IMG/VR virus record: IMGVR_UViG_3300022839_000006
Location: 29,896 to 93,895 of that record
Source of the DNA: a virus
DNA: 64,000 bases
Direction: 5' to 3' (one strand)
Positions 1,414 to 29,093 of this stretch are shown piece by piece; position 1 is the stretch's first letter, and each line of letters begins with the position of its first letter. Position numbers and translations under genes: made by a program. The notes below the pieces were generated by a model. It was not told the origin of the DNA and did not search any database. It saw nothing but the letters and a program-made list of their open reading frames with translations.

Positions 1414-1517
1414 CCAAATCGTCCTCGCTTGTATTATGTATAAGTGTTGATGTACAATTAAACTAATAGAATACAGGACCGTAAACCCAGGTTTGATAAT
1501 ACAAAGGCGTTAAAATA

Positions 1518-1892
1518 ATGTTCGATATAGAAAAACTCAAAGTTGGTGATGTCTTCTTTTCCATAGACGAAGATAACAATATCATACGTCGTAAAAAAAT
1601 CCACAAAGTGATTGATGGCCAAGATTGGTGGAGATATGATATCCATATAAGAACATATTCAATCGCCACGCACGAGGTACTTGGAATTGTGAGATCCACG
1701 CTGCAGGGTGTGTGGATCGAAGGCGGTGCGTGGGATCTACTCGCGAAACATCATGTTAAAACCGAAAGTCGTGGTGAAACCTCGTCCTATTTTATAACAG
1801 ATGATGAACCGGAACATGGATATTTCCATCGCAAATCAGACGCGACGGAAGCAATGAAACTTCTAGAATTTGAGGCGAGGGGCGCGGCGTAA
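1518..1892 (+). CDS. hypothetical protein
   Basis: 124-aa ORF, AAAATAATG start context. Confidence 0.45.
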   Translation: MFDIEKLKVGDVFFSIDEDNNIIRRKKIHKVIDGQDWWRYDIHIRTYSIATHEVLGIVRSTLQGVWIEGGAWDLLAKHHVKTESRGETSSYFITDDEPEHGYFHRKSDATEAMKLLEFEARGAA

Positions 1893-2050
1893 GTGTTTGT
1901 TTTTGAACAGGTTCGCAAAGCTACCAAGTAAAACGAAAAGTCCTACGTACGACGAGTATCGTAGTCTGACACAGTTAGGCGAGCTTTCAAGCACCAAGGT
2001 GCTTGAGCTACATATAGGCACTATTAAGAAATCCAAACGGAGACAAACAA

Positions 2051-2776
2051 GTGAAAGTGAAAATAGGAAAATATACATCTTGGTTCGGTCCATATCAACT
2101 TGCAAGTGCACTTTGTTTTTGGGCCAAACCTGTCAAAGATGAACATGACATGATGGGCGAACCTGATTGGGTTCATAAGTTTGGTGAAATGCTCGCTTAT
2201 GGAAGCGCTGCGCCTGAATCAGATGATCTTGTCTGGGAGGATAAACGTCGTAAAACGTGGCTGTATAGATTTCTCGATTGGATCCAATCAAAAAAGAAAC
2301 GCAAGGTGATTGTGAAGCTTGAGCCTTATGATACGTGGTCAATGGACAATACACTTGCTCTAATCATCTTGCCTATGTTGAAACAGATTTTGGACCAGAA
2401 ACATGGTTCACCGTTTGTAGATCATGAAGACGTCCCTTTGGAAATGAGACCAACAAAGGAACAATATGATGGGCACATGGAAACAGGAGACACAGATCTA
2501 GACCCACTGTTTCACGACCGTTGGACCCATGTAATATCTGAAATGATTTTTGCTTTTGAAACAGAGGCAGGGTCCACACAAAACTGGGAAGAAGGTTTTG
2601 TCACTGGGCACAACGACGCGAGATTCGAAAAGATTGATGAAGAAGGTACACTAGAGCTTGTATACGGACCTGATCATACAGAAGTGATAGATCAAGAGTC
2701 CCGGGACCAATACCAACAACGGATTCAAAACGGATTCAGACTTTTTGGCAAGTATTATTCGAATCTTTGGTCATGA
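2051..2776 (+). CDS. hypothetical protein
   Basis: 241-aa ORF with GTG start; no recognisable motif. Confidence 0.45.
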   Translation: MKVKIGKYTSWFGPYQLASALCFWAKPVKDEHDMMGEPDWVHKFGEMLAYGSAAPESDDLVWEDKRRKTWLYRFLDWIQSKKKRKVIVKLEPYDTWSMDNTLALIILPMLKQILDQKHGSPFVDHEDVPLEMRPTKEQYDGHMETGDTDLDPLFHDRWTHVISEMIFAFETEAGSTQNWEEGFVTGHNDARFEKIDEEGTLELVYGPDHTEVIDQESRDQYQQRIQNGFRLFGKYYSNLWS

Positions 2777-2993
2777 AAAGAAAATTTCCCATCCTAATTA
2801 AAAGCAAAGGCTGTTCATCTTCTGGAAAGCTGACTGTTAAATGTGTGTCTTCAAGTTGCATCACGTAGTTATACAGTTTCAAAGAGCTCCTTAAAGGACT
2901 AAATATGTGCAGAAGAGGCAAAGCATACACGGTGGAGTTTTAGTATGAAAACCACGACTACCTCTCGTGAATGTGTGTACTGTAAAAGGGTAG

Positions 2994-3410
2994 ATGGAAA
3001 TGGTTAAAGTGATTTGGTTTGTGTTGGGGATTCTGCTTCTCGGTGTTGCATATCTTGGCGTAGTCCTACCAGGAATCCCATGGAGCACACCTGCTGTGGG
3101 TGCTGCTTATTGTTTTGCAAAATCCAGCACAAGGATGCACAAATGGATATACAGTCACAAATTGTTTGGTCCTTTCTTGGTTGGTTGGCAAGAAAAAAGA
3201 ATATTTCCACTAAGATTCAAGTTTTTTATGGTAGCAACAATGTCAACTTCACTAATATCTCTGTGGTTCACTACAGGTAACATACTTGCAGTGATGTGGT
3301 CTGGTGGGTTTATGTTGTTGGTTGGGATTTGGGGTTGGAGATACCCAAGTTCGGACGACGAACACCAAAAAAGAGTAAAAAATCAAAAACGTATAGGGTG
3401 GTTAAAATAG
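2994..3410 (+). CDS. DUF454/YbaN-like inner-membrane protein
   Basis: Hydrophobic N-terminus with LPGIPW motif and a second pair of TM segments, as in YbaN/DUF454. Confidence 0.5.
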   Translation: MEMVKVIWFVLGILLLGVAYLGVVLPGIPWSTPAVGAAYCFAKSSTRMHKWIYSHKLFGPFLVGWQEKRIFPLRFKFFMVATMSTSLISLWFTTGNILAVMWSGGFMLLVGIWGWRYPSSDDEHQKRVKNQKRIGWLK

Positions 3411-3532
3411 ATGGAAATGGTGCGCTAAATATGTTATATACTGCATCGAACCACCTTCAATTTCGATGCAGTATATAACGTTGGCTATTAATAATCAGTG
3501 GACTGTGTGTCCGCGTACAATTGAAGGAAAAA

Positions 3533-4143
3533 CAATGAGTAAAAAAGCATCAAATTTCGACTTGGCTGATATTTTTGGCAAGCAGACAAAACAAGACGAC
3601 AAAAGTTTCTGTAAGCCTATTGTGCACATACACGAATTTTATCTGAGCGGTGTGATAGAATCCGCTGATGCTTATATCCAGTGGTTTGACACAATTCGCC
3701 ATGCTGGGTCCAACGACGCAATAAAAATATACATAAATTCGTATGGTGGAGATATAAATACTGCAATTCAAATGTTGAGAATTCTTAACGATACAGAAGC
3801 GACCGTAATTGTATCTATCGAAGGTGCGTGTATGTCGGCAGCTACTATGGTGTTGATGGTAGCGGACAGTGTTGAAGTTTCACCACATTCGCAAATTATG
3901 TTCCACAACTATTCAGGTGGTACTATCGGAAAGGGCAGTGATATGCATTCGCAGATAGAATTCGAAAGAATGTGGTCTATCAAACTGATGAACGGTGTGT
4001 ATGAAGACTTTCTGTCGAAAGAAGAAATCCAAAAACTTTTAGATGGTAGTGATTTGTGGATGGATGGCGACGAAGTTGTTAAGCGATTGGAAGCAAAAAA
4101 CAAGAAAGATAAACCTAAGTCCAAGTCCAAGAAAAAATCATAA
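3533..4143 (+). CDS. ClpP-like (S14) serine peptidase, stand-alone
   Basis: SYGGDINTAIQMLRIL, catalytic Ser region EGACMSAATMV and His region IMFHNYSGGTIG align to the ClpP GxASMG / MIHQPxGG motifs; Lys-rich tail. Start taken at MSKKAS (RBS GGAAAAACA), not the upstream in-frame ATG. Confidence 0.6.
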
Positions 4144-4218
4144 GAACAAACTAAAATATGCACATGCCTGTTGACAAGCCCCACGAATTATCATATAAAA
4201 TAGATAAAGAAAAGGGGA

Positions 4219-4478
4219 TGTCAATGCGTATCACTGCTGAAAATATCACTTCTATCGCAATCGGAACCAGAGTTGTTATGAACTGGGGTGCATACTACCC
4301 AACAGAAGAAGGTCTTGTAGTTGATTATAAAATTGTACCTCCTTCGAAATTCTTTCCAGCCAAATACGTGGTTGTTGTAGAAGGTTCTAACGGTCGAATC
4401 CACGACACGTCAGAATTTATAAATTCCGGAGTGGGTGTTTATCTTGAGAGTGTTTTTATGCAACCGAAAAGCTACTAA
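4219..4478 (+). CDS. hypothetical protein
   Basis: ORF with GGGG RBS before the MSMRITAEN start. Confidence 0.45.
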
Positions 4479-4607
4479 GAAATAGCGTAACCCACTGCGC
4501 AGAAAGAAAAGATAACGATTTTGGATTTAATTTGGATGCTATCCCAGCGCTCACTGACCTGCAACAACAACACTGTATCAAGATCTGTGCCATTAGGAGG
4601 ATAAAAG

Positions 4608-4817
4608 ATGACAAATAATCGCAGTCGCATTGCTACTCTCATGCAGGTTAGTTCGGCAATAACAGTTGATGAAATTTCTGAGATAACAGGAATTTCTACT
4701 CTGGAAGCGCAGGAAATACTGATAACAATGGACGATGATGGAGACGTGTTGATGCGTAACGGATTTTACCGCGCATCTGAATTACTCAAGACCAAGAGAA
4801 TACAACAAGGAAAATAA
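4608..4817 (+). CDS. small hypothetical protein (possible winged-helix DNA binding)
   Basis: 69-aa ORF, RBS AGGAGGATAAAAGATG. Confidence 0.45.
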   Translation: MTNNRSRIATLMQVSSAITVDEISEITGISTLEAQEILITMDDDGDVLMRNGFYRASELLKTKRIQQGK

Positions 4818-4821
4818 TCAG

Positions 4822-5004
4822 ATGAGACTTTTTTTTACTGAGCACACAATAATCAATTTAAATTCGATTTGCTCTGTTGACATCAAAAATAACATCGTCA
4901 ACACCGTGGACGGTAACCATACAGTAATGCTGAGTCTACAAGAAACAAAAAATCTCGTTTCTGCCCTGAGAGAGATCCACAATCAAAACTATCGAAGAAC
5001 ATGA
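4822..5004 (+). CDS. small hypothetical protein
   Basis: 60-aa ORF immediately after upstream stop. Confidence 0.3.
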   Translation: MRLFFTEHTIINLNSICSVDIKNNIVNTVDGNHTVMLSLQETKNLVSALREIHNQNYRRT

Positions 5005-5184
5005 TCGAATTCGTACCGTGATGGTCGGCATGCCTGTTGCATGAAAAATATCCCATTAACAAGCATGTATTGCCCCACATGTTAATGAAGGGCTCGGTAA
5101 TTATGCCTCTGTTGGTAATTATGGTAGATGTGGGCGATTAATACGCACACAAAAGAATTTTGATGTAAAACAAAGGAACGCACC

Positions 5185-5349
5185 TTGATACACTTTCTAA
5201 TTGTACTTGCCGCACCTATTATCGCACTTGCGGTAGGTTATTTGTATGGCTGCAATAATATCGAACCAGATTTCGATTGGAAAAATGACGATGCTCTTGA
5301 AAATAAAACTACTGAAGAAATTCAGGCAGAAATTGAAGCACTAGCATAA
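5185..5349 (+). CDS. small membrane protein, TTG start (not in ORF track, <60 aa)
   Basis: AAAGGAA RBS 7 nt before TTG; a single TM helix then an acidic tail; followed by a 12-bp-stem hairpin. Confidence 0.3.
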   Translation: MIHFLIVLAAPIIALAVGYLYGCNNIEPDFDWKNDDALENKTTEEIQAEIEALA

Positions 5350-5453
5350 TACAAAGCCAAATGGCAACAGTGTGATGTTGTTGCCATTTGAAAATCCAAG
5401 AAACAAAAAATGTTTTTATTTTGGCATGACGCCAGTGTAAGGATTGGAGCAAA

Positions 5454-6137
5454 ATGAGTAAAACAAGATATATAGGCGATGTGCACGGCCACGTTCATGA
5501 ACTACAACTGGTCCTAAACAATCTTCCTGAGGACGTCACGTCTGTTGTTCAAGTTGGTGACATGGGCGTGGGGTTTGGCAAAGGCGAATATTGGCACACG
5601 TCTCTTGATGAAATGATGGTCCACAACAATGCAAAATTCATTCGAGGAAATCACGACTCGCCCGATGAATGCAAGAAGATGGAATCGTGGATTCCTGATT
5701 CAACAGTTATTAATGATGTAATGTATGTGGGAGGCGCGTGGTCAATTGACCACCATTGGAGGACTATGGGGATTAATATTTGGGAGGATGAAGAGCTCTC
5801 TTATACTGATCTAGACATTGCTATCGACACGTTTAAATTTGCACGGCCAAGAGTAATGGTTACACACGATTGTCCTGAAGAGATCTCTCTCGAACTGTTT
5901 ATCAAAACGGGAAACAGTATAGGCGGCGGAATCCAATTCAAAACTAGGACCGCATCTGCACTACAAACCATGTTCAAACATCACCAGCCTGATTTGCACA
6001 TTTTTGGTCATTGGCACACGGATGTTGATGAAGTTGTAAATGGGACAAGATTCATTTGTCTTGGCGAACTCAGTTATTGTGATGTGGACGACGACACTCT
6101 CGAAATTGTGTGGCAAAAAACGATCAGATCGTTTTAG
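5454..6137 (+). CDS. calcineurin-like metallophosphoesterase
   Basis: GDVHGH...GDMG...GNHD...GHWH motif series. Confidence 0.7.
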   Translation: MSKTRYIGDVHGHVHELQLVLNNLPEDVTSVVQVGDMGVGFGKGEYWHTSLDEMMVHNNAKFIRGNHDSPDECKKMESWIPDSTVINDVMYVGGAWSIDHHWRTMGINIWEDEELSYTDLDIAIDTFKFARPRVMVTHDCPEEISLELFIKTGNSIGGGIQFKTRTASALQTMFKHHQPDLHIFGHWHTDVDEVVNGTRFICLGELSYCDVDDDTLEIVWQKTIRSF

Positions 6138-6152
6138 AATTAAGGAGCAGGT

Positions 6153-6518
6153 ATGAGCAGTTACAGATTTGAGAATTGGGTCATTATAAAATTTAATAGT
6201 GCGGACCCACACTACAGAGTTCTTGGCGGAAGATCAGGCAGCTACCTTGATGGTAGCAGTTGGCGCATGAACAGCGGCGTCACAAGTGTTGAAAGTAGAA
6301 TTGACCATTACGTGAGTCAAGGCAAAAGGAAAGAATTCCTTTTGTATGAATTCTATGGTGCGAGCGGATCTTGTTACACATGCAACAAAGAATCTTACGG
6401 TCTCAAAATGAACAACGCACATGTTTGGAACGAGTTGGAAGAAATCTACGGCGATAAAGTCGAACTAATGGACGAAGATACAGATTGGCTGAACATGGAT
6501 TGGCTGATCAAAGCGTAG
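6153..6518 (+). CDS. hypothetical protein
   Basis: 121-aa ORF, RBS AAGGAGCAGGTATG. Confidence 0.5.
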   Translation: MSSYRFENWVIIKFNSADPHYRVLGGRSGSYLDGSSWRMNSGVTSVESRIDHYVSQGKRKEFLLYEFYGASGSCYTCNKESYGLKMNNAHVWNELEEIYGDKVELMDEDTDWLNMDWLIKA

Positions 6519-6523
6519 TATTA

Positions 6524-6904
6524 TTATGGGTTCCAGTATCCCATTTCTCCAGTTGTCGGATTGTAAACAGTGTAGAAGAAACCTGTAGGCAATGTGCTAG
6601 TTGGTGCTGTACCTGTGGTGTTTTCTCTAACTGGTTTGACAATTAGTGTATTTGCTACTACGTTGTCCAATTGGATGTTGGTTGCATTAATAACAATACT
6701 ATTCGCTGCTTGACTGGCCAACCCAGCTCTAGCACCAATTGCTATTGCAGCCGTGCCTTGATTGTTTCTGCCCGCTTCGATGCCTATTGCTATTGCTAAC
6801 GTGCCTTGGGATTGTGTTGCTGCATAATTACCAATCGCCACTGAACTCACCAGTTGTTGTACTTGACCAGCACTGTGGCCGATAGCAATGGCGTTTTCGT
6901 TTTG
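6524..6904 (-). pseudogene. tail-fibre-like repeat protein (AIAIG / Hep_Hag-like repeats) lacking a canonical start
   Basis: Open frame runs 22 codons above the only in-frame start (GTG at 6850) and continues the AIAIG repeat. The upstream promoter/RBS cassette copy has ACG where the paralogous cassette has ATG. Confidence 0.4.
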
Positions 6905-6945
6905 GTTGTCCTCTATGTATTTTTAAGATACTTTTATACTATTTC
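6903..6945 (-). promoter_or_regulatory. copy 2 of ~45-bp late promoter/RBS cassette (TATAAAAGTATCTTAA...ATAGAGGA)
   Basis: ~90% identical to 9010-9056; in this copy the start codon position holds ACG. Confidence 0.5.
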
Positions 6946-6960
6946 TTCTATGAGTTTGCT

Positions 6961-7860
6961 TTACCAAAACTTTAGTTTCTTGGCTGCTTTTTTAGCTGCA
7001 TTTGCCGTGGCTTTGGCTGCATCTTCTGCTGCTCTACCTGCCTCTGCCGCTGCTTTATCAGCTGCACGTTTTGCACCTGCGGCAGCTTTAGCGGCTGCAT
7101 CTGCTCGTCGCTGTGCTTCTTCAGCGGCTGCGTGTTCTGCGTCTGCCGCGGCTTTAGCAGCCCGCGAGGCTTCAGCAGCCCGCGAGGCTGCCGCCACTGC
7201 TGGCTTTGTATCTACGCTGACACTTAGGTCAACATCAACACCTGCTAGCACAGCAACTTCGCCACTTACTCCTATAGTAGCAACACCGTCGTCCATAGTT
7301 GCTCCGCCGCCAACTTCAGCACCTGCTTGAACACCGATACTTGTACCACCAGTTGCAGCACCACCATTGCCAGAGCTGTCATAAGCACTAGAAGTATTGT
7401 CAACACCTACACTTGCTCCAGCAGTTGCACCTGCATGGCCTTCTGCACCGTCTTTGCCGATTTGTGCAGATGCACCGGCACTTGCTCCTGCTTCTGCATG
7501 TACTGAGGTTTCATTCTTAACTTGAACACCCCCAACTTGTTGGCTTACACCAGCAGTTGCTTCTGCACTTGCACCAACTTCTGCACCAACTTCTGCATAA
7601 GCATTACCACCACTCACGCCTGCACTTGCACCAGCCTCAGCATGGGCCTCTGCACTAGCACCTGCTTCTACTGTTGTGTCCCCATATGATGTACTAGCAC
7701 CCGCCTCTACACTGACTCCAGCTCCTGCTGTCGCGGATGCTGTAGTGTCAGTTACTTCAGTGCTAGTTCCAGCATGTGCTTCTGTGCCGGCATGTGCTTC
7801 TAAGTTAACACCGCCTACATTTGTTTCTGCGCTTGTACCTGCTTCTACTTCTTTATTCAT
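6961..7860 (-). CDS. Ala/Gly-rich low-complexity protein with Ala-Lys/Arg-rich C-terminal helix
   Basis: AAGAGGA RBS before MNKEVEAG; 8-nt overlap with upstream gene. N-terminus has EAGAS-type repeats and the C-terminus reads AAKAAADAEHAAAEEAQRRADAAAKAAAGAKRAADKAAAEAGRAA. Confidence 0.5.
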   Translation of the reverse strand: MNKEVEAGTSAETNVGGVNLEAHAGTEAHAGTSTEVTDTTASATAGAGVSVEAGASTSYGDTTVEAGASAEAHAEAGASAGVSGGNAYAEVGAEVGASAEATAGVSQQVGGVQVKNETSVHAEAGASAGASAQIGKDGAEGHAGATAGASVGVDNTSSAYDSSGNGGAATGGTSIGVQAGAEVGGGATMDDGVATIGVSGEVAVLAGVDVDLSVSVDTKPAVAAASRAAEASRAAKAAADAEHAAAEEAQRRADAAAKAAAGAKRAADKAAAEAGRAAEDAAKATANAAKKAAKKLKFW

Positions 7861-8173
7861 TGTAATTGTCCTCTTCTTTTCTTTTTGCCAAAGCACTGCC
7901 TGTTAACAACGCACCAAACGCCAGATGAAACATACCAGCGCCTTTAAGTGTAAGTGGTTCATAAGGCGCCCACACTAATTCTATTAATTGCATTTGGATG
8001 TCATGATCTACTTCTGATTGTCCAAATACAGATGTATCTAATTGATCTCTGGTTGCTACAATCCAAGTAGGAATAATTACAAAATCAAATACACATATTA
8101 ATGCATATATGAGAGCAAGAAGAGGTTTCCAACCTTCATTTTTTTGTAGCCATACGAAAAATCTTTTCATCAC
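7853..8173 (-). CDS. small 2-TM membrane protein with charged C-terminus (holin-like topology)
   Basis: 106 aa, two hydrophobic segments, KRKEEDNYNE tail, AAGGAAT RBS. Confidence 0.45.
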   Translation of the reverse strand: MMKRFFVWLQKNEGWKPLLALIYALICVFDFVIIPTWIVATRDQLDTSVFGQSEVDHDIQMQLIELVWAPYEPLTLKGAGMFHLAFGALLTGSALAKRKEEDNYNE

Positions 8174-8283
8174 TATTCCTTATCATGTAATATTGATAGA
8201 TTTTTTATAATGATGAATCATTATCATTCTATCTCTCTTTGTTTAATTCTAATATATTGATGATACGTTATATAAACTGAATG

Positions 8284-9009
8284 TTAGATTCTAAAATCTG
8301 TGTACAAATCCGCAGTTGTTGTGCCAAAACTAGTAACGATCAATTGGCCTGTTGCATTGTTTTTTATGCTACCAGTCCCAAATCCACCTGTCGAATTAAT
8401 GTCGCTCACACCACTGTCTACGTCTAGATCAGTACCACTAGCATTTTTAAACATCACCACTACCTTCTTACCAAGAACAATGTTTGTATATGCCACGGTA
8501 ACAGTTTCTCCTGTTATTGTGGCCAATACGTAATTGTCAGTAGCGAAGTCAATTGTAAGTGTTGAATCAGCACCAAACGAACCTGCGTTGCGCGTCCCGC
8601 CTTTATACGTTGTTGCTGCAATCATTGCATTTGCGTCACGTGCAACAATTTTGTTAGCAGTTGGTGTAGCTGTCGCATCGACAGCTAGTGTCCCTGATGC
8701 AGTTATGGTACCATCTGAACTAATGTTGACACCTGGGCCTACTTTGATCCCGCCAATTCTATTCTCTGTTCCAGGAAGCAAATTCATGATGCTGCCGTCC
8801 ATGTTGAATTCAGGGCCTGGCTGGACAGAACCAAGCGTTGCTGCTGTTGCTGCTGCTATGGTCTGTGGTATGCCACCAACTGTTTCACCATCGGAAAGCC
8901 TTAACAGCCCTACGTCTAAATCGAAGAACATTTCACCCTTCACACCAATATAACTTGCAGCATCAGTGCCACCCATATTATCAGTAAAAATCTTTGATGT
9001 TGTGGTCAT
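8284..9009 (-). CDS. tail-fibre-like protein
   Basis: Gly/Thr/Ser-rich beta-type sequence (IGGIKVGPGVNISSDGTITASG); preceded by a TATAAAAG box and GAGGA RBS. Confidence 0.6.
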   Translation of the reverse strand: MTTTSKIFTDNMGGTDAASYIGVKGEMFFDLDVGLLRLSDGETVGGIPQTIAAATAATLGSVQPGPEFNMDGSIMNLLPGTENRIGGIKVGPGVNISSDGTITASGTLAVDATATPTANKIVARDANAMIAATTYKGGTRNAGSFGADSTLTIDFATDNYVLATITGETVTVAYTNIVLGKKVVVMFKNASGTDLDVDSGVSDINSTGGFGTGSIKNNATGQLIVTSFGTTTADLYTDFRI

Positions 9010-9056
9010 CTTGGTTATCCTCTATGCATCTTATTAAGATACTTTTATACTATTTA
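9010..9056 (-). promoter_or_regulatory. copy 1 of ~45-bp late promoter/RBS cassette driving the tail-fibre-like gene
   Basis: Minus strand reads AAATAGTATAAAAGTATCTTAATAAGATGCATAGAGGATAACCAAGATG. Confidence 0.5.
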
Positions 9057-9134
9057 TGTGTTTTGTAAATTTGATCGAATTGACATTAAGCTAAGTAGCC
9101 ATGTATTGTGAATGACACAAACAGGAGAATTACA

Positions 9135-9425
9135 ATGCCGTCTAATAAACATCTAAAGCATTCCTTAGATATAGCTTATGAAGATATCATGGCTTCTGAA
9201 CAGCTTGTCAAAATGGTCAGACAAGGTGGAAAATCAGAGCAACTAGCTCAATACATCAACTTTATTTTGTCTGAAAATGTAGAACATGTCAGACCCTTTT
9301 ACGATAATGTAAACACCAAGGGCTGGGAGTCAGTTGTCCCAGATCCAGATCCTTTTGTGAGACCTGTATCGAACCCATCAAAGAAAAAACGCAATCAACT
9401 ACGTGCAAAGCGAAAGAAAAAATAA
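9135..9425 (+). CDS. hypothetical protein with basic C-terminal tail
   Basis: RBS ACAGGAG before MPSNKHLK; C-terminus KKKRNQLRAKRKKK. Confidence 0.45.
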   Translation: MPSNKHLKHSLDIAYEDIMASEQLVKMVRQGGKSEQLAQYINFILSENVEHVRPFYDNVNTKGWESVVPDPDPFVRPVSNPSKKKRNQLRAKRKKK

Positions 9426-9464
9426 AAATGTCTGTCACTGTCTTGTTTAAAAGGAATTTGAAAA

Positions 9465-9641
9465 ATGTTCTACCGCTTTAATTCTGGAAATTTTGTAGAA
9501 GCTGACAGCTTCCAAGAAGCTCAAGAGATTGCTATCCACTTGATACAGCAAGAAACAGAAGAGCCTAGAAAATGGCACAAATGCACGTGCTTAGGCTTTC
9601 AACATCGAATTGGTTGTCCGGAACACAATTGGGTCGATTGA
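9465..9641 (+). CDS. small hypothetical protein (58 aa)
   Basis: AAAGGAA RBS; ORF checked by hand. Confidence 0.3.
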   Translation: MFYRFNSGNFVEADSFQEAQEIAIHLIQQETEEPRKWHKCTCLGFQHRIGCPEHNWVD

Positions 9642-9780
9642 ACAGCCAAAACCGCTGCACAAGAAATGATTGAGCATCTTGATGAAGTGTGGATTTGTTT
9701 GATGCTCTGCTAAATTGGTGGTTGACTTCGCCCTTTGCAAACGGTACAACTAAGGCATAGGCAAACAAGAGGACAATGAG

Positions 9781-9972
9781 ATGAACGGTTACAAAGCTTT
9801 CTGGAAAGACAAAGAATGTGAAGTTTATGCAGACACTTCATATGCTGCACAAACCCAGGCAGTGGTTCAATTCCAGAAAATGGCTGGGCGCAAGAAAGTC
9901 AAATCATACGACGTCACAGTTGTGATCTGCGAGAAGAACGACTCACTAATCACGCATACTTTTTCGGAATGA
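9781..9972 (+). CDS. small hypothetical protein
   Basis: 63-aa ORF with GAGGAC upstream. Confidence 0.4.
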   Translation: MNGYKAFWKDKECEVYADTSYAAQTQAVVQFQKMAGRKKVKSYDVTVVICEKNDSLITHTFSE

Positions 9973-10136
9973 TGGCTGACACTGAAGTGTCCAAGTTAAT
10001 GTGCTGACAGATCAAGGAGAAATGAGATGATTATCTGGAAAGATGTTCCAATTGAAATTGTCGAAAAGGGCACGTTGACACCTGACCATCCATCTGCTAT
10101 AACTGATGTATAGAGCAAGTCAAAAAGGACAATGAC

Positions 10137-10424
10137 ATGGGTCGTGGAAAATATAGTGTTTCAGGTTACAAAAAATGGCCAGAAGGTTACGAGTTCAGTT
10201 ACAATCGTTACGGACAAGAATGTGCTCCTTGGACCGCTGAAATGATTAAGGACCCAGACCAAACCTATGACTCCAAGACAATGTTTGGCAATTATGATGA
10301 AGATGGATATGATAGCTATGGTTATTCATGTTTCGATGAAAATGGAACTGATGTTGGCTGTGGAAATGGGATCGACCGAGAAGGCTACACAGAACACGAT
10401 TACCTGTCAGAACAAGACTGCTGA
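10137..10424 (+). CDS. hypothetical acidic Tyr/Gly-rich protein
   Basis: 95-aa ORF, RBS AAAAGGACAATGACATG. Confidence 0.45.
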   Translation: MGRGKYSVSGYKKWPEGYEFSYNRYGQECAPWTAEMIKDPDQTYDSKTMFGNYDEDGYDSYGYSCFDENGTDVGCGNGIDREGYTEHDYLSEQDC

Positions 10425-10495
10425 CACGGCCTAACGACTTCACTATAGTCTTCCTATATGTAATTCACTCCCTCTGCACGAAAGGCACCGTCCAC

Positions 10496-10843
10496 ATGAG
10501 TAATGACACAACACGTGATAAGATTGCATTGATTCACGCACACGAGCGCCGCTCTGAATGGCCTGACGCACAAGACTTTTATGCAGCAGATGCTATCATC
10601 GCGGCTTTGTCAAGTGTGATTAAGCCACTGGCATGGGAGAAATCCGAATGTTATAAAGCCTTCGTTTCAGGTGATATGGTTGTACAGCATGAACACGACG
10701 AAAAAGGCAAAGGGACATGGACATTCGGACTCATGGACAATCAACTAATATCCGAGCACCCAACATCAGACGAAGCCAAAGCCGCAGCCAACAACCACTA
10801 TTGCGCTGCATGTCTGTTGCCGTTTGGTATAGTGTTGTCATGA
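10496..10843 (+). CDS. hypothetical protein
   Basis: 115-aa ORF. Confidence 0.45.
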   Translation: MSNDTTRDKIALIHAHERRSEWPDAQDFYAADAIIAALSSVIKPLAWEKSECYKAFVSGDMVVQHEHDEKGKGTWTFGLMDNQLISEHPTSDEAKAAANNHYCAACLLPFGIVLS

Positions 10844-11795
10844 CCGAGTGCCGAGCGTGATGTGTTCTGCTATTACATTGTGACTCTATCAGTCAAAGAC
10901 AGTAGAGGATCGTAATAATTATGCATGTCCATACAACTCAAAAGGATAATCTAATGAACATTGATTACAGCAAACTTCCCTTTCACATGCAAGACGGAAC
11001 AGGCGTTACATCGAGAATGGTATCCCACCAGGAGGATTCCTGTCAGCAGTAATTTGCAACGACTTGAGCGGGTGCATACGGTAAAGCAGACCACCACAAT
11101 CGCAGTGTAATTGAAGACTGGATTAGGTTCTTCCACAATGATGCTCCAGCAGATTGTTCGGGAAGCGTAGTCGCATTTAACGATTGGTGCAGGTCAGGCG
11201 GAACGATGAAAGGTGTTATGACATGAAAGTTTACATTTACTTAAATAACTGGCACATTGATTAGGAGACGTTTGGGACTGATATCGTCTGGGTGTCAGAT
11301 CAACTACATCCACCATATTCCAGATCTGAAATTAATGCATGACCAAGTGGAGTTTTGGGAAGATGGGACCAAACAATGGTCCAAGGAACATGACGGAAAA
11401 ATGTCACTAAATTGGATCTGATAAATAGAAGACAACCCAATGTCTAAACTTGCATTCATGGATGCAGAAACAAAAGAATACTTTGTCAACGAGAAATTTG
11501 ACAAGTTTAATTTCTCGTTGGACATCAACAGGGCAAAACTTTACTTTAGAACTCCTGGGGTTTTGAGTGGGTCAAACTCAAAACAAAAAGACAGTTGACA
11601 TTGGTTGAAGTTAAAATTGATAATAGAGGCACATCACTATTTCTCGATGAATTACATGATGGTCGACTCAAAGAGTTCCAGCGTCTAGATCTATTGGCAA
11701 CAAAGAACTTGGAAGAAATGGAGACATCGTCATATTATCGGTGGCGAACACCAAGGAAAGAACTTACAACTTAATTAACCAAAGGAGTTTTGGTA

Positions 11796-12809
11796 ATGAC
11801 TAAAGAATTTGATACACTTGTAACGGTAATGAGGATGCAACCATTCCACCTTGGTCACCAAGCAGTGATCGGCGCCGCATTGAAAAATGCACACGAAGTA
11901 ATAGTGGTAATTGGATCTAGCTTCCAACCACGAACCACAAAAAACCCATTTACATTTGAAGAACGCAAAGCCATGGTGCTTGCATGTTATCCTGATCTAC
12001 CAGTCCGAGTGGTTGGGGTTCGGGACTATCCTTATGACGACAATGCTTGGGTGTCTGCTGTTCAACATGTAGTGGATTCGGTTAAGACTGGTACTCGAAC
12101 AGGGTTGATTGGGCACTCCAAAGATTCAAGTTCATACTACTTGAAAATCTTTCCGAATTGGCGGAAACATGTGGAAGTTGAGAATTATCAGGGCATTAAC
12201 GCAACTGATATCCGATCGGATTTATTCTCCAATGGAGTATATTTTACGAGTGGTGTTTTGATGCCGCGATCGGCGCTGGCCTCCATGTCGATGGCATTGT
12301 TGGAAGGAACGTGGTGGCCTGATCTCAAAGAAGAACATACGCAGATTAAAGCATACCACGAGAAATGGGAATCAGCACCATATGCACCAACCTTTGTGAC
12401 AACGGATGCAGTGATTGTGCAATCTGCTCATGTGTTGCTAATCAAACGTGGCAACTTCCCGTTCAAAGATTGTTGGGCATTGCCAGGTGGGTACCTCGAA
12501 AAAGACAAGACAATTGAGGAAAACGTGATCAAAGAGCTCAGAGAAGAAACGTGCATCAAACTTCCTGCTAAGGTTCTTAAAGGTTCCATCAAGTCAACTC
12601 AAGTGTTTGATCACCCTGACCGTGATCCCAGAGGTCGTACCGTTACACACGCCTTTTATATTGATCTTGGATTTCCAGATGAGAAACTGCCCCGAGTAAA
12701 AGGTGCGGATGATGCAGTCCACGCAGAATGGGTTCCTCTCAGTCAAGTGTCAAGTGACATCATGGCGTTTGACCACTACTCTGTTATTTCACACTTTGTA
12801 AAAATTTAA
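11796..12809 (+). CDS. nadM: bifunctional NMN adenylyltransferase / Nudix hydrolase (NadM-Nudix)
   Basis: N-terminal nucleotidyltransferase (H/T)xGH motif MQPFHLGHQAV; C-terminal Nudix box GGYLEKDKTIEENVIKELREETCI; AAAGGAG RBS. Confidence 0.8.
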   Translation: MTKEFDTLVTVMRMQPFHLGHQAVIGAALKNAHEVIVVIGSSFQPRTTKNPFTFEERKAMVLACYPDLPVRVVGVRDYPYDDNAWVSAVQHVVDSVKTGTRTGLIGHSKDSSSYYLKIFPNWRKHVEVENYQGINATDIRSDLFSNGVYFTSGVLMPRSALASMSMALLEGTWWPDLKEEHTQIKAYHEKWESAPYAPTFVTTDAVIVQSAHVLLIKRGNFPFKDCWALPGGYLEKDKTIEENVIKELREETCIKLPAKVLKGSIKSTQVFDHPDRDPRGRTVTHAFYIDLGFPDEKLPRVKGADDAVHAEWVPLSQVSSDIMAFDHYSVISHFVKI

Positions 12810-13210
12810 ACAAGTCACACAACGGAGAAAAATTATGGAAAATCTGATCGAGGCATATTGAGCGAGAAAACAAAAGGAAACAATAAATGACAGCTCAGCA
12901 GAAATGAAATCAATTGACGACAATCTTTATTCTGGCCATGGAAGATACCGTGGTGTGTATATTGAATTATATGAGGGATAAAATGAAACGAACAGTTAGA
13001 ATTGCATTGAGAATTATTGGTTAACTATTACATGGAATGGGCATGTGACGCGGGACTGGCCGGTGGGGAACAATATACTCGATATTGCCAAGACATTACT
13101 GTTCTATATTTCCAGAAGATGTACTTTATGAAGATGTAACAAAAGAATACAGTTGACAACCAACACACTATAATATAAATAACAATATCATTAACTAGAG
13201 GAGTTCTATA

Positions 13211-14710
13211 ATGAAAAATATTCTAAGCCTGCTTACTTCCATCATGCGTACCGATGGATACAAGACTTCACAATTCTTACAATACCCAGCTGACACGCAA
13301 TACATCAGCTCATATATTGAATCGCGCGGCGGCGCTGACACCAGTGTATTCTTTGGTCTACAAGCATTCATCAAAGACTATATGCAAACCCCCATTACTC
13401 AATCCGATATCAACTTTGCAGAAGCAGTTTTTACAAAGTACGGTACTCCCTTCAACCGAGAAGGTTGGGAGATCATCGTCAACGAGTTTGATGGGTATCT
13501 GCCACTGGAGATTGAAGCGGTTCCAGAAGGTACTGTTATGACAACCAGAAACATCCAAGTTCAAGTTGTAAACACTGATCCCAGAATGGGATGGTTGACA
13601 TCATACGTTGAAACTGCTCTGCTACGTGGGGTATGGTATCCTTCAACAGTGGCAACCAAATCTCGCGAGATGAAGGTGATGATTGCACAGGCACTGTTCA
13701 AAACCAGTGACATCCCACTTGATATTCTAATGGGGCCTGTGTTGAATTTCACTCTCAATGACTTTGGTGCTCGTGGTGCGTCATCCACAGAGACTGCCGT
13801 TCTTGGTGGGATGAGTCACCTTGTAAATTTCTGGGGCAGTGACACAATTGAGGGCATGATTGGCACACATGTTTACTATTCTGCTGATATTACAGACGTG
13901 TCTACACCTGTTGTTGCAGGGTCAATCGCGGCAAGTGAGCATAGTAGTATTACCAGCTGGGGCAAGGAAAACGAAGGTAAAGCATATGCCAATATGATTG
14001 ACCAGTTCTCTGCGCCTGGTAAAATTTACGCCTGTGTCAGCGATTCATACGACATCTACAATGCAACCAAAAACATTTGGGGATATGAACTCAAGGTTCA
14101 AGTAATTGAATCGGGAGGCACTCTGGTTGTACGTCCAGACTCAGGTGATCCCGTTACTGTGCCAATCGAAATCCTTGACATTCTGGCAGAGCAGTTTGGA
14201 TACACTGTAAACAGCAAGGGATTCAAGGTTCTTGCGCAGCGTGAAGATGGGTCCGCCATTGTGAAAGTCATCCAAGGTGATGGTCTTGATGTGGTCACCA
14301 TGAAACAATTACTGGACAATGTGATTGAGGCTGGATACAGTGTGGAAAACATTGCGCTGGGCATGGGCGGCGGACTCTTGCAAAAAGTAGACCGTGACAC
14401 TCTGAAATATGCCATGAAGGCTTCTGCCAGATGCGATTCAGATGGAGTATGGCATGATGTGTTCAAAGATCCTATTGCAGATCCTGGCAAGACTTCCAAG
14501 AAAGGTCGGCTGGGACTGATCTACGAATGTGGAGTTGGTTCATGTGGTTACCGGACACTGCCCAAGGAATTTGCAGATGAAAAAGGCAATATCCTGCGTA
14601 CAGTGTACCGGAATGGCGTGCAATTAATTGACGATGATTTTGAAACTGTTCGAACACGGGCAGGTCTGAAAGAATCAGAATACAATCCACAACCAATTGA
14701 ACGATTCTAA
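13211..14710 (+). CDS. nadV: nicotinamide phosphoribosyltransferase (NAMPT/NadV)
   Basis: 499 aa; MRTDGYKTSQF N-terminus and FGARGASSTETAVLGGMSHLVNF core typical of the NAMPT family; RBS AGAGGAG. Confidence 0.85.
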   Translation: MKNILSLLTSIMRTDGYKTSQFLQYPADTQYISSYIESRGGADTSVFFGLQAFIKDYMQTPITQSDINFAEAVFTKYGTPFNREGWEIIVNEFDGYLPLEIEAVPEGTVMTTRNIQVQVVNTDPRMGWLTSYVETALLRGVWYPSTVATKSREMKVMIAQALFKTSDIPLDILMGPVLNFTLNDFGARGASSTETAVLGGMSHLVNFWGSDTIEGMIGTHVYYSADITDVSTPVVAGSIAASEHSSITSWGKENEGKAYANMIDQFSAPGKIYACVSDSYDIYNATKNIWGYELKVQVIESGGTLVVRPDSGDPVTVPIEILDILAEQFGYTVNSKGFKVLAQREDGSAIVKVIQGDGLDVVTMKQLLDNVIEAGYSVENIALGMGGGLLQKVDRDTLKYAMKASARCDSDGVWHDVFKDPIADPGKTSKKGRLGLIYECGVGSCGYRTLPKEFADEKGNILRTVYRNGVQLIDDDFETVRTRAGLKESEYNPQPIERF

Positions 14711-15683: not shown

Positions 15684-15726
15684 TATTACAACTGTCCTAT
15701 AACTTATGTACTAAAGGAGAAATAAG

Positions 15727-16173
15727 ATGATTGAGTATACAGTTAAAGTTAATGACACCGGAACTAAGTCTTGGTATCTCAACGGTAAGCTACACCGAGA
15801 AGACGGTCCTGCTGTTGAGTTGGTCAACGGTAATAAGTTCTGGTACCTTAACGATAAGCAACACCGAGAAGATGGTCCTGCTATTGAGTATGGCAATGGT
15901 GATAAGTGGTGGTACCTTAACGATGAGCAACACCGAGAAGATGGACCTGCTGTTGAGTACATCAATGGTTATAAGTCTTGGTACCTTAACGGTAGGCGAC
16001 ACCGAGAAGATGGTCCTGCTATTCAGTATAGCAATGGTAATAAGTCTTGGTACCTTAACGGTAGGGGCCTAACGGAGGCAGAACATAAAGCTGCTACTTC
16101 ACCTAAGGATACTTGTAATGGTAAAGAAGTAGTAATTGATGGTATTACTTATGTATTAAAGGAGAGTAAATAA
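15727..16173 (+). CDS. MORN-like tandem-repeat protein (4 copies of W-Y-L-N-G-x-x-H-R-E-D-G-P-A repeat), paralog 1
   Basis: AAAGGAGA RBS; internal ~72-nt periodicity; C-terminal LTEAEHKAATSPK...GKEVVIDGITY. Confidence 0.6.
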   Translation: MIEYTVKVNDTGTKSWYLNGKLHREDGPAVELVNGNKFWYLNDKQHREDGPAIEYGNGDKWWYLNDEQHREDGPAVEYINGYKSWYLNGRRHREDGPAIQYSNGNKSWYLNGRGLTEAEHKAATSPKDTCNGKEVVIDGITYVLKESK

Positions 16174-16174
16174 G

Positions 16175-16555
16175 ATGATTGAACATACAGTTAAAGTTTA
16201 TGACAATGGCACTAAGCAGTGTTACCTTAACGGTAAGCTACACCGAGAAGATGGCCCTGCTATTGAGTGGGCCAATGGTTCTAAGTGGTGGTACCTTAAC
16301 GATGAGCAACACCGAGAAGATGGACCTGCTGTTGAGTACATCAATGGTTATAAGTCTTGGTATCTCAACGGTAAGCTACACCGAGAAGGGGGACCAGCTA
16401 TTGAGCATAGCAATGGCGATAAGTATTGGTATCTTAACGGTAAGCTACTAACGGAGGCAGAACATAAAGCTGCTACTTCACCCAAGAAGAAGCCTAGTTG
16501 TAGTGGTAAAGAAGTAGTAATTGATGGTATTACTTACACCCTAAAGGAGAAGTAA
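16175..16555 (+). CDS. MORN-like tandem-repeat protein, paralog 2 (recent tandem duplicate)
   Basis: Nearly identical N-terminus MIEHTVKV, same repeat and C-terminal module, same RBS. Confidence 0.6.
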   Translation: MIEHTVKVYDNGTKQCYLNGKLHREDGPAIEWANGSKWWYLNDEQHREDGPAVEYINGYKSWYLNGKLHREGGPAIEHSNGDKYWYLNGKLLTEAEHKAATSPKKKPSCSGKEVVIDGITYTLKEK

Positions 16556-16556
16556 G

Positions 16557-16613
16557 ATGATTGAGTATACAGTTGAAGTTAGTGGCAGCGGTGCCATTGG
16601 AAGTTATAATTGA
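16557..16613 (+). pseudogene. truncated third copy of the MORN-like repeat gene (18 codons, MIEYTVEV...)
   Basis: Same AGGAGAAGTAAG RBS and start as paralog 1, then an early stop. Confidence 0.4.
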
Positions 16614-22882: not shown

Positions 22883-23281
22883 ATGAATATGTTTGAACGT
22901 GCAACACGTAGTAAATATACTTTTGCGACAAGTGTTGGCCTCATCGGTGTAACAGATCTTTGGGACCTGCCACTGACCTCACAGCGTGGTGCAAACCTGA
23001 ACGACGTAGCGAAAGAAATCAATCGTGTTTTGAAATCGCAAGACGAAGATGACTTTGTGTCCATGTCTATCAATGTGAAAAAGACACAAAACGAGTTCAA
23101 GCTCGAACTGGTTAAGTACATCATCTCCGTAAAGCAGGCAGAGAATTCAGCAAGCCTCGAGAAAAAGACCAATGCAATGCGCAAAGAGAAGTTACTTGCG
23201 TTGTTGGCTAAGAAAAACGACGATGCTCTTGAAAGCAAAACCATCGAAGAAATTCAACGGGAAATCGAAGCTCTGGCATAA
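22883..23281 (+). CDS. hypothetical protein
   Basis: 132-aa ORF, RBS AAGGATAAAAAATATG. Confidence 0.5.
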   Translation: MNMFERATRSKYTFATSVGLIGVTDLWDLPLTSQRGANLNDVAKEINRVLKSQDEDDFVSMSINVKKTQNEFKLELVKYIISVKQAENSASLEKKTNAMRKEKLLALLAKKNDDALESKTIEEIQREIEALA

Positions 23282-23289
23282 GAAAAAGA

Positions 23290-28881: not shown

Positions 28882-29064
28882 ATGGAACAATACTTCTTGC
28901 TGTTATCCCTTGCTGTTTTAATCGTGATCTTCGTCAGGGGGACATTTATCGTGTTCAGTCAAAACTTCTTGATGGCAACAATGTTGCTCTTCGTGCTCCC
29001 CCCATTACTTTTTGTTTGGATCGTGTATGTGGGCATTTTCATGAGAACTCAAGATCCAACATAG
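28882..29064 (+). CDS. small membrane protein; its C-terminal codons are formed by repeat R1
   Basis: 60-aa ORF, two TM helices. Confidence 0.35.
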   Translation: MEQYFLLLSLAVLIVIFVRGTFIVFSQNFLMATMLLFVLPPLLFVWIVYVGIFMRTQDPT

Positions 29065-29093
29065 TAACAACATAAAGGACGAATAAAATGAAC
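29029..29093 (+). repeat. repeat units R1 (29029-29061) + R2 (29065-29093)
   Basis: R1 GTGGGCATTTTCATGAGAAYTCAAGATCCAACA recurs at 29372-29404; R2 TAACAACATAAAGGACGAATAAAATGAAC recurs at 30953-30981. Confidence 0.8.

What the first reader, a model, noticed from the sequence alone, without database searches (positions are those of the whole stretch)
6524..9060. Minus-strand late cassette inside the early plus-strand region, with a duplicated promoter/RBS cassette
A 2.5-kb block runs opposite to its neighbours. It holds a tail-fibre-like gene (8284-9009), a holin-like 2-TM protein, an Ala/Gly-rich disordered protein and a second tail-fibre-like repeat ORF. Two ~45-bp elements (9010-9056 and 6903-6945) are ~90% identical. 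They read TATAAAAGTATCTTAA-N-CATAGAGGA-N8 and sit before the first and last ORFs. Downstream of the second copy the open frame already encodes the AIAIG repeat for 22 codons with no ATG/GTG/TTG until GTG at 6850. So the second gene is a decaying paralog, is started non-canonically, or serves as a donor cassette for tail-fibre recombination.
Basis: seen in the sequence. Interest (0 to 1): 0.65.

Follow-up and report, generated by a model that had tools for sequence, protein, structure and literature searches.

The report
Beheaded fibre gene beside late fibre module
In an uncultured T4-like phage, a small opposite-strand block of late virion-fibre genes ends in a leftover fibre gene that kept a copy of its neighbour's ribosome-binding leader but lost its start codon and attachment domain; this is ordinary mosaic phage evolution.

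Summary
Four minus-strand ORFs (6524-9009) lie among plus-strand genes of a distant T4-like myophage. A ~45-nt element occurs exactly twice (87-89% identical), before the first and last ORF. The last ORF has no in-frame ATG/GTG/TTG before GTG 6850.

What it is: a late-transcribed virion-appendage module.
- Gene 1 is a modular fibre protein.
- The "holin-like" protein belongs to a family found in PA5oct virions next to an adhesin.
- The Ala/Gly-rich protein has a homolog with a tail-fibre chaperone domain.
- The last ORF is the C-terminal ~60% of a 200-219-aa YadA-head-repeat fibre.

Full-length homologs map their N-terminal domain onto gene 1 and the rest onto this ORF. The break lies at AACCAA in the ribosome-binding spacer, in frame and in register with the repeat's Asn-Gln codons. 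That points to a microhomology deletion that removed the start codon and about 85-95 codons. The ACG aligned with ATG is out of frame. Copy 2 also lacks the ATAAATA late-promoter core that copy 1 has.

Best reading: a gene remnant (about 0.6). A short protein made from an internal GTG is not excluded. The donor-cassette idea has no support. Known kind, low interest.

The parts
8284..9009 (-). Gene 1: a 241-aa modular fibre protein. It has an N-terminal Mtd_N-like attachment domain (about residues 1-50), a poorly predicted linker with a GGIKVGPGVNISSDGTI motif, and a confidently predicted C-terminal beta-sandwich domain (about 138-241).
9010..9057 (-). Cassette copy 1: late-promoter core ATAAATA (9057-9051), TATAAAAG (9049-9042), a 7-bp leader hairpin, Shine-Dalgarno GAGGA (9022-9018) and spacer T-AACCAA-G, followed by ATG at 9009.
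   Evidence: Of 10 minus-strand ATAAATA sites in the window, 8 lie in the late structural-gene block at 53-64 kb, at least 6 of them in the upstream regions I read, and one is this site.
9080..9109 (+). Sigma-70-like promoter (TTGACA-18-TATTGT) pointing away from the block toward the plus-strand gene at 9108. It marks the divergent early/late boundary.
   Evidence: This is a consensus match only.
7853..8170 (-). 105-aa membrane protein with one strong transmembrane segment (about 16-38), one weak Gly/Ala-rich hydrophobic segment (about 78-95) and a charged C-terminus. It belongs to a widespread phage family associated with fibres and virions.
   Evidence: Hydropathy. 120 homolog clusters. The PA5oct homolog EST35_0306 is annotated 'structural protein, ESI-MS/MS' near a putative adhesin, and the Atu_ph07 homolog lies near a tail fibre gene.
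8202..8209 (-). TATAAAAA, 31 nt upstream of the 2-TM gene start. It sits where relatives have TATAAATA and is a likely variant late promoter.
6961..7860 (-). 299-aa Ala/Gly-rich protein (29% Ala, 14% Gly) with about 29-residue internal repeats and a helical Ala/Lys/Glu tail ending KKLKFW. Its start overlaps the end of the 2-TM gene. Probably a fibrous virion protein.
   Evidence: Composition and repeats D3/D4. Homologs are P0168 (71% identity) and P0169 (47%); P0169 ends in a Peptidase_S74 fibre-chaperone domain scoring 26.4 bits against a cut-off of 22. The 2-TM and Ala-rich pair recurs as a unit in L029-L034, corresponding to window 8203-6954 at 72-75% nt identity.
6898..6946 (-). Cassette copy 2: AGAAATA (6946-6940, core broken), TATAAAAG (6938-6931), no stable hairpin, GAGGA (6913-6909), C-AACCAA-A (6908-6901), then ACG (6900-6898) where copy 1 has ATG.
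6902..6907 (-). Inferred deletion junction. The spacer hexamer AACCAA is read in frame as Asn-Gln and is in register with the 16-codon repeat unit.
   Evidence: Within the same ORF, a later unit reads AAT CAA GGC. Homologs read AAC CAA GG in frame (L006, L012, L004). Copy 1's spacer reads AACCAAG.
6524..6922 (-). Beheaded fibre ORF. It is open for 132 codons after the TAA at 6925-6923. It holds four YadA-head-like AIAIG repeat units plus the conserved INAT...VKPVR...YNPTTGE end. The first in-frame starts are GTG 6850 and GTG 6841.

Best explanation
The block is a late-transcribed virion-appendage module set in the opposite orientation inside a region of non-structural plus-strand genes of a T4-like phage.

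Transcription is inferred to start at the late promoter in cassette copy 1 and probably again at TATAAAAA before the 2-TM gene. It would yield three products: a small modular fibre protein, a small membrane or virion-associated protein, and an Ala/Gly-rich fibrous protein.

The fourth ORF is the remnant of a second small fibre gene that once had its own copy of the same leader and ribosome-binding cassette. That gene encoded an Mtd_N-like anchor, YadA-head-type repeats and a C-terminal tip. A deletion, or an illegitimate join during a module swap, occurred between the AACCAA(G) of the ribosome-binding spacer and an in-frame AAC-CAA-(G) (Asn-Gln-Gly) at a repeat-unit boundary. It removed the ATG and about 85-95 codons of anchor domain.

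What remains is a Shine-Dalgarno site with no start codon behind it, a broken late-promoter core and an anchorless open frame. This is most likely a non-functional leftover that has not yet decayed.

Shown: the anatomy, the homologies, the split mapping and the register of the junction. Inferred: the deletion mechanism, late timing and lack of expression.
For: - Full-length homologs are 200-219 aa. Their N-terminus (MATRK..YIGxDGE..SDGATPGG) matches gene 1's N-terminus.
- By tblastn, P0004, P0015 and P0017 place residues about 3-45 on 8872-9000 and residues about 84-218 on 6530-6943.
- The cassette homology ends at AACCAA. This hexamer is in frame and in register with the repeat's N-Q codons. 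Homologs encode N-Q-G as AAC CAA GG, and copy 1's spacer reads AACCAAG.
- The ACG is out of frame. No in-frame codon lies 5-9 nt after GAGGA.
- The internal GTGs have weak Shine-Dalgarno pairing (-2.2 and -3.0 kcal/mol, against -5 to -12 for most genes here).
- Copy 2 has AGAAATA where copy 1 has ATAAATA, and it lacks copy 1's leader hairpin.
- The gene callers left this stretch uncalled on L001 and L002.
- The junction is identical in a second strain.
- Late character: ATAAATA precedes structural genes of the 53-64 kb block. TATAAATA precedes the homologs in L006, L024 and L029.
- Homologous small fibre genes are likewise lone opposite-strand genes among early-type genes in L023 and L024/L025.
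Against: - The frame is still open for 132 codons in both strains, and the only indel inside it is in frame (6 nt, one repeat-slip unit).
- The two closest relatives in the databases (P0001 at 95%, P0002 at 76%) are both anchorless. The P0002 version sits in an unrelated 251-kb phage with an ATG and an ATAAATA 20 nt upstream.
- The shared 84 codons give dN/dS of about 0.34 (21 synonymous against 27 non-synonymous changes, binomial p = 0.0026).
- About a quarter of the evident genes I scored in this phage also have weak Shine-Dalgarno sites, so GTG 6850 or 6841 cannot be excluded as a start.
- There are no expression data.
Confidence: 0.6

Rival explanations
1. The anchorless ORF is a real gene. 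A 105-108-aa protein is made from GTG 6850 or GTG 6841 on the read-through late transcript, or from TATAAAAG of copy 2. It consists of about three YadA-head repeats plus the conserved tip. It would act on its own, for example by co-assembling with a fibre or serving as a small decoration or assembly factor.
For: - The frame is open in two strains.
- dN/dS is about 0.34 against the L004/L013 version.
- An independent short version in L013 has an ATG and an ATAAATA.
- GGTGA lies 5 nt before GTG 6841.
- The gene caller called a 107-aa product on L003.
- The 17-codon frame that begins at the ACG ends in a TGA overlapping GTG 6850 (GTGA).
Against: - Every homolog of 200 aa or more that I examined has an N-terminal part that the ORF lacks.
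- The strong Shine-Dalgarno site is wasted on a non-start codon, and pairing at the GTGs is weak.
- Nucleotide identity to L004 is mosaic (70% over the first 135 nt, 94% over the last 117 nt). Differences by codon position are 18/11/19, so third positions are not favoured. The constraint signal may therefore date from intact ancestors or from recombination.
- Window and L003 differ by only 3 synonymous and 3 non-synonymous changes.
- The short forms P0003 and P0027 turned out to be miscalled parts of longer repeat ORFs.
Confidence: 0.27
2. The ORF is a silent donor cassette. It would be an alternative fibre C-terminal module kept for recombinational swapping of host range, with the duplicated leader cassettes acting as crossover points.
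For: - Fibre C-terminal modules are clearly exchanged in this family. Gene 1 is a chimera of two families.
- The tip of the remnant is 94% identical to that in an otherwise unrelated phage.
- The minus block is 98-99% identical between strains whose flanking genes are 72-94% identical.
- Repeated regulatory cassettes mediate module shuffling in T4-type phages (PMC2839356, PMC4122927).
Against: - The two cassettes are direct repeats. A crossover between them deletes gene 1, the 2-TM gene and the Ala-rich gene, and leaves the same startless, anchorless ORF.
- There is no second homology segment between gene 1 and the remnant that would graft the module onto gene 1's anchor.
- There are no inverted repeats, and no recombinase among the called genes within about 6 kb.
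- Only two copies of the cassette exist in the window, none in IMG/VR and one (the second strain) in the metagenome scan.
Confidence: 0.05
3. An ancestral single fibre gene (cassette, anchor, AIAIG part) was split by insertion or replacement. A donor segment carrying a new C-terminal domain, the 2-TM/Ala-rich pair and a second cassette replaced the region from the anchor domain to the first repeats. This gives the same end state as the best explanation, a remnant, by a different history.
For: - Full-length homologs map as two halves onto gene 1 and the remnant.
- The 2-TM/Ala-rich pair is an independently mobile unit with sharp boundaries at 8203 and 6954, immediately next to copy 2.
Against: - Gene 1's anchor is closer to the P0041-46 type (63-68%) than to the AIAIG-family anchors (41-53%).
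- It requires the donor to end in a second cassette.
- It cannot be told apart from the tandem-paralog-plus-deletion history with the present data.
Confidence: 0.08

Closest known systems
T4-type late genes with gp55-type TATAAATA promoters, transcribed opposite to the surrounding early genes
   Same: An ATAAATA core lies 41 nt upstream of gene 1, the same motif as before the gp23, gp20, gp19 and gp18 homologs in this window. Homologous small fibre genes in other T4-like contigs are also lone opposite-strand genes behind (T)ATAAATA. That late genes run opposite to early genes in T4 is established knowledge, not tested here.
   Different: The first base of the octamer is C in copy 1. Copy 2 and the 2-TM gene have only TATAAAAG and TATAAAAA. 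Promoter activity is untested.
[quoted passage not shown] 2010, PMC2839356; Comeau et al. 2014, PMC4122927)
   Same: A short repeated regulatory element sits at gene-module boundaries in a variable region of a T4-like genome. The block it flanks has a different divergence history from its surroundings.
   Different: PeSLs are sigma-70-type early promoters with terminator stem-loops and are present in many copies. Here there are only two copies, no sigma-70 match on that strand, no terminator, and late-type motifs plus a Shine-Dalgarno site. The duplication is better explained by paralogy of two fibre genes.
Trimeric autotransporter YadA-head (Hep_Hag, PF05658) repeat fibres, as used in phage tail fibres
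   Same: 14-16-residue units with an xAIAIGxxAG motif. Ten of 16 family members hit PF05658 (best E 2.7e-6), and the family profile hits the YadA head structure 1p9h at E 0.009.
   Different: The window ORF itself gives no Pfam hit. It is much shorter, lacks any anchor, and ends in a distinct VKPVR...YNPTTGE tip.
Alternative tail-fibre C-terminal cassettes of phages Mu (G segment/Gin) and P1 (C segment/Cin)
   Same: A startless fibre C-terminal coding segment lies downstream of an expressed fibre gene. Comparison drawn from established knowledge of those systems.
   Different: Those systems use inverted repeats and a site-specific invertase, and the constant N-terminal part is shared by in-frame fusion. 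Here the repeats are direct, no recombinase was seen, and no in-frame fusion route exists.

Membership tests
T4-type late promoter | TATAAATA-like -10 octamer without a -35 element, a few tens of nt upstream of a late gene start | tested here: met
   Copy 1 reads CATAAATA at 9058-9051, 41 nt before the ATG. The range for the structural genes in this window is 24-55 nt. This is a motif match only; activity was not tested.
T4-type late promoter | The same octamer in cassette copy 2 | tested here: not met
   Copy 2 reads GAGAAATA at the aligned position (6 of 8, core ATAAATA broken). Only TATAAAAG (6 of 8) remains.
PeSL regulatory cassette | Strong sigma-70-like early promoter | tested here: not met
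   No sigma-70-type match on the minus strand within either cassette.
PeSL regulatory cassette | Terminator stem-loop within the cassette | tested here: not met
   There is only a 7-bp AT-rich hairpin in copy 1 (-5.9 kcal/mol, z -1.6) and none in copy 2. No terminator-like site was found there.
PeSL regulatory cassette | Many dispersed copies in hyperplastic regions | tested here: not met
   Two copies in 64 kb.
YadA_head / Hep_Hag repeat fibre (PF05658) | Significant match to the repeat profile | tested here: inconclusive
   The window ORF gives no hit at E <= 1. Ten of 16 aligned homologs hit (best 2.7e-6), and the family profile hits PDB 1p9h at E 0.0094.
200-219-aa small fibre family (P0004/P0015 type) | N-terminal Mtd_N-like anchor domain preceding the repeats | tested here: not met
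   The window ORF begins inside the repeats. The anchor-like sequence occurs in the window only in gene 1.
200-219-aa small fibre family (P0004/P0015 type) | Repeat region plus the conserved QAANSIVINAT...VKPVR...YNPTTGE end | tested here: met
   45-54% identity over 96-99% of the query to full-length members.
Mtd_N-type fibre anchor (PF18454), gene 1 | Match to the domain profile or fold | tested here: inconclusive
Holin | Small membrane protein encoded next to an endolysin, or homology to a known holin | tested here: not met
   There is no Pfam hit and one weak PHROG hit of unknown function. No lysin is present in the block. Homologs lie among structural or adhesin genes, and the PA5oct homolog is a virion protein by mass spectrometry. 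One strong transmembrane segment plus one weak hydrophobic segment are present.
Invertible fibre cassette (Gin/Cin type) | Inverted repeats flanking the segment and an adjacent site-specific recombinase | tested here: not met
   The repeats are direct. The called genes within about 6 kb show no recombinase family.
Diversity-generating retroelement target (Mtd type) | Template repeat copy of the variable C-terminal region and a reverse transcriptase nearby | tested here: not met
   There is no direct repeat of gene 1's 3' end anywhere in the window and no RT family among the neighbouring genes. RT was not searched for across the whole window.

The most novel reading that the evidence does not exclude
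Anchorless fibre tips (a few YadA-head repeats plus the VKPVR...YNPTTGE end) are a maintained and expressed class of small late proteins in marine T4-like phages. They would have arisen more than once by beheading of full fibre genes, and would be used as free subunits that cap, compete with or assemble onto virion fibres. The window's copy would then be translated from an internal GTG, possibly coupled to the short upstream frame whose TGA overlaps GTG 6850.
Probability: 0.15. Interest if true: 0.5.

Novelty: new member of a known kind. Interest (0 to 1): 0.25.

Why it matters
It is a clean, datable example of how fibre genes in T4-like phages are rebuilt. A resident receptor-binding module is displaced, the junction shows a 6-7-nt microhomology between a ribosome-binding spacer and a coding repeat, and neighbouring genes behave as separately mobile units. 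That is useful for annotation: do not call this ORF a tail fibre gene or the 2-TM gene a holin. It is also a small case study of mosaicism, but it does not open a new question. It would deserve more attention only if the anchorless fragment proved to be expressed.

Tried and rejected
- Near-identical DNA search of the block against GenBank phages found no match. Protein searches of gene 1 and the remnant there found only a 47-aa N-terminal hit to cyanophage S-CAM7 and nothing for the remnant.
- IMG/VR scans for gene 1 relatives and for the cassette pattern found nothing. The single metagenome scan for the cassette returned only the second strain. No relative with an intact second gene was found.
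- ACG as a non-canonical start is rejected, because it is out of frame with the repeat ORF.
- ATT 6889 and ATC 6883 as starts are rejected: they lie 19 nt or more from the Shine-Dalgarno site and have no pairing of their own.
- Apparent 'short' homologs P0003 and P0027 were checked as evidence for a natural anchorless class. Both are gene-calling fragments of longer repeat ORFs.
- dN/dS between the two strains is uninformative, with only 6 substitutions.
- Homology between the window's 2-TM and Ala-rich proteins and the genes flanking the full-length fibre in L006: none.
- Rfam search of 5000-10500 gave only sub-threshold noise. The leader hairpin is not significant and is absent from copy 2.
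- TATAAAAR as a genome-wide late motif: 11 sites against 5.5 expected, scattered, not decisive.
Full report
**Source.** The window comes from an uncultured, distant T4-like myophage. It encodes Gp23-type capsid, Gp20-type portal and Gp18-type sheath proteins at 53-62 kb on the minus strand. The capsid protein is at most about 64% identical to those of Sinorhizobium phiN3, Methylophilales Melnitz and cyanophages. The same sequence is present on a 107-kb ENA contig and a Logan contig, and both are identical to the window over 6300-9300. A cluster record gives 208 kb as the longest contig for gene 1's product.

**Observation.** The block 6524-9009 holds four minus-strand ORFs between plus-strand genes that end at 6518 and start at 9108.
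- The 21-mer AATAGTATAAAAGTATCTTAA occurs exactly twice in the window, with none expected by chance.
- In both copies it is followed by CATAGAGGA-Y-AACCAA (family D11).
- Identity over about 46 nt is 87-89%.
- Downstream of copy 2 the frame is open from the TAA at 6925-6923 and has no ATG/GTG/TTG until GTG 6850.
- A second strain (L003, L026) has the same junction base for base.

**Two corrections to the description.**
- The ACG (6900-6898) that aligns with gene 1's ATG is in a different frame from the AIAIG ORF, whose codons begin at 6901 and 6898. The ACG frame closes after 17 codons at a TGA that overlaps GTG 6850.
- The late-promoter motif of this phage is (N)ATAAATA. It precedes the gp23, prohead-core, portal, tube and sheath genes. 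Of 10 minus-strand ATAAATA sites in the window, 8 lie in that late structural-gene block and one is at 9057-9051 in copy 1. Copy 2 reads AGAAATA there. What the two copies share best is therefore the sequence downstream of that core: TATAAAAG, the leader and the Shine-Dalgarno site.
- A 7-bp leader hairpin exists only in copy 1.

**Gene 1 (241 aa).** It is a chimera.
- Its first 50 residues are 63-68% identical to one set of 191-217-aa proteins. Its last 135 residues are 57-63% identical to P0034-P0038 (46% to P0039).
- The N-terminal part is a sub-threshold Mtd_N match.
- The predicted C-terminal beta-sandwich is confident.
- The model matches phage tail fibres, Mtd_N proteins and tailspike or fibre structures.

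**The 105-aa membrane protein.** It has one strong and one weak hydrophobic segment and belongs to a large family. The PA5oct member was detected in virions by mass spectrometry and lies beside a putative adhesin. The Atu_ph07 member lies near a tail fibre gene. No lysin is adjacent here, so 'holin-like' is not supported.

**The Ala/Gly-rich protein.** It has real homologs, and one of them ends in a Peptidase_S74 fibre-chaperone domain above Pfam's threshold. It is therefore more likely a fibrous virion protein than a merely disordered one. The 2-TM and Ala-rich genes travel as a pair. Contigs L029-L034 share only window 8203-6954 (72-75% nt identity), with unrelated flanks, and have TATAAATA where the window has TATAAAAA.

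**The fourth ORF.**
- Its homologs are mostly 200-219 aa. They consist of an N-terminal anchor (MATRK..YIGxDGE..SDGATPGG), YadA-head-type repeats and a conserved end.
- Ten of 16 aligned members hit PF05658, and the family profile hits the YadA head structure 1p9h.
- The window ORF aligns only from the repeats onward.
- By tblastn, full-length members put their anchor on gene 1 (8872-9000) and the rest on the ORF (6530-6943). No other copy of either part occurs in the window.
- The full-length homolog in L006 has a terminator and TATAAATA 31 nt before its ATG.
- Homologs of gene 1 in T4-like contigs with gp59 and DsbA-type genes are also lone opposite-strand genes behind (T)ATAAATA.

Such inverted late fibre genes are thus a recurrent and ordinary feature of this phage group.

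**The junction.** When the ORF is laid out in its 16-codon repeat register, the spacer hexamer AACCAA (6907-6902) is read as Asn-Gln at exactly the position where later units read AAT CAA GGC. Homologs there read AAC CAA GG in frame. Copy 1's spacer is AACCAAG.

I infer a deletion or illegitimate join through this 6-7-nt microhomology. It would have removed the ATG and about 85-95 codons. This explains three things at once: why cassette homology stops there, why the open frame runs back through the Shine-Dalgarno site, and why the ACG is out of frame. An alternative history is replacement of the 5' part of a single ancestral gene by an incoming segment. That leads to the same end state and cannot be separated from the first with present data.

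**Is the remnant used?**

Evidence against use:
- No start codon lies at Shine-Dalgarno distance.
- Pairing before GTG 6850 and 6841 is weak (-2.2 and -3.0 kcal/mol, against -5.8 at the cassette and -5 to -12 for most genes).
- The promoter core is broken.
- No gene was called there on two contigs.

Evidence for use:
- The frame is intact in both strains.
- The only indel is an in-frame repeat slip.
- The nearest database relatives are both anchorless. One lies in a non-syntenic 251-kb phage next to tRNA genes, with its own ATG and ATAAATA.
- dN/dS over the shared 84 codons is about 0.34 (p = 0.0026).

That last signal is weakened by mosaic identity (70%, then 94%) and by nearly equal changes at codon positions 1 and 3. 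It could also have accrued in intact ancestors.

My estimates are about 0.6 for a remnant formed by deletion from a tandem paralog, 0.08 for the same remnant formed by the replacement history, 0.27 for an expressed fragment and 0.05 for a donor cassette.

**The donor-cassette idea.** It fails on geometry. The repeats are direct, so a crossover would only delete genes 1-3. There is no second homology segment, no inverted repeats and no recombinase nearby.

**Comparison with known systems.**
- PeSL cassettes (PMC2839356, PMC4122927) are the closest described 'repeated regulatory cassette at module boundaries' in T4-type phages. This element fails each defining feature: no sigma-70 promoter, no terminator stem-loop and not many copies.
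- Duplicated ribosome-binding and start segments from paralogous genes occur elsewhere in the window. That fits simple paralogy.

**Verdict.** This is a known kind of phage mosaicism, of low to moderate interest.

Noticed in passing
window 6524-7327 versus flanks 1488-6518 (L003, L026): Between two strains the minus-strand block is 98-99% identical (dS about 0.03). The adjacent plus-strand genes are 72-94% identical (dS about 0.2). The block, remnant included, appears to have been exchanged or swept recently as a unit.
   Followed up: partly
window 8203-6954; L029-L034: The 2-TM and Ala/Gly-rich gene pair is a discrete two-gene module. It is found at 72-75% nt identity in other phage contigs, in a different context (followed by SNase and Macro-domain genes), with a canonical TATAAATA upstream.
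   Followed up: yes
L004/L005/L013-L015 (L013 5947-6258): A 103-aa anchorless version of the same fibre tip sits beside tRNA-Gly and tRNA-Thr genes in an otherwise non-syntenic 251-kb IMG/VR phage. ATAAATA lies 20 nt before its ATG. Its last 117 nt are 94% identical to the window.
   Followed up: partly
window 15687-16600: Tandem array of paralogous small genes with a 69-nt internal period. Three gene starts share a ribosome-binding site and N-terminus (AAAGGAGA..ATGATTGAGTATACAGTTAAAGTT).
   Followed up: no
window 5280-5356 and 23212-23288: The 3' ends of two small plus-strand ORFs 18 kb apart are 81% identical over 77 nt.
   Followed up: no
window 29027-29098, 29371-29405, 30950-30986: Further short duplicated segments: 35 nt at 97% identity, and a ribosome-binding-site-plus-start cassette at 92%. 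Duplicated gene starts seem common in this genome.
   Followed up: no
window 11790-14710: NadR-like NMN adenylyltransferase/Nudix and NAMPT genes (an NAD salvage pair) lie next to the block. A TATAAATA is at 13174-13181, just before the NAMPT gene.
   Followed up: no
L009-L011 (P0020): A 217-aa YadA-head fibre homolog sits in contigs that look like a giant eukaryotic virus (Rpb1 domains, faint TBP hit, RING fingers, metacaspase, protein kinase). The small fibre family therefore extends beyond tailed phages.
   Followed up: no
window 6854-7330 (+): A 158-aa plus-strand ORF lies antisense to the Ala-rich gene. It is almost certainly a by-product of the GC-rich, low-complexity repeats and not a gene.
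   Followed up: no
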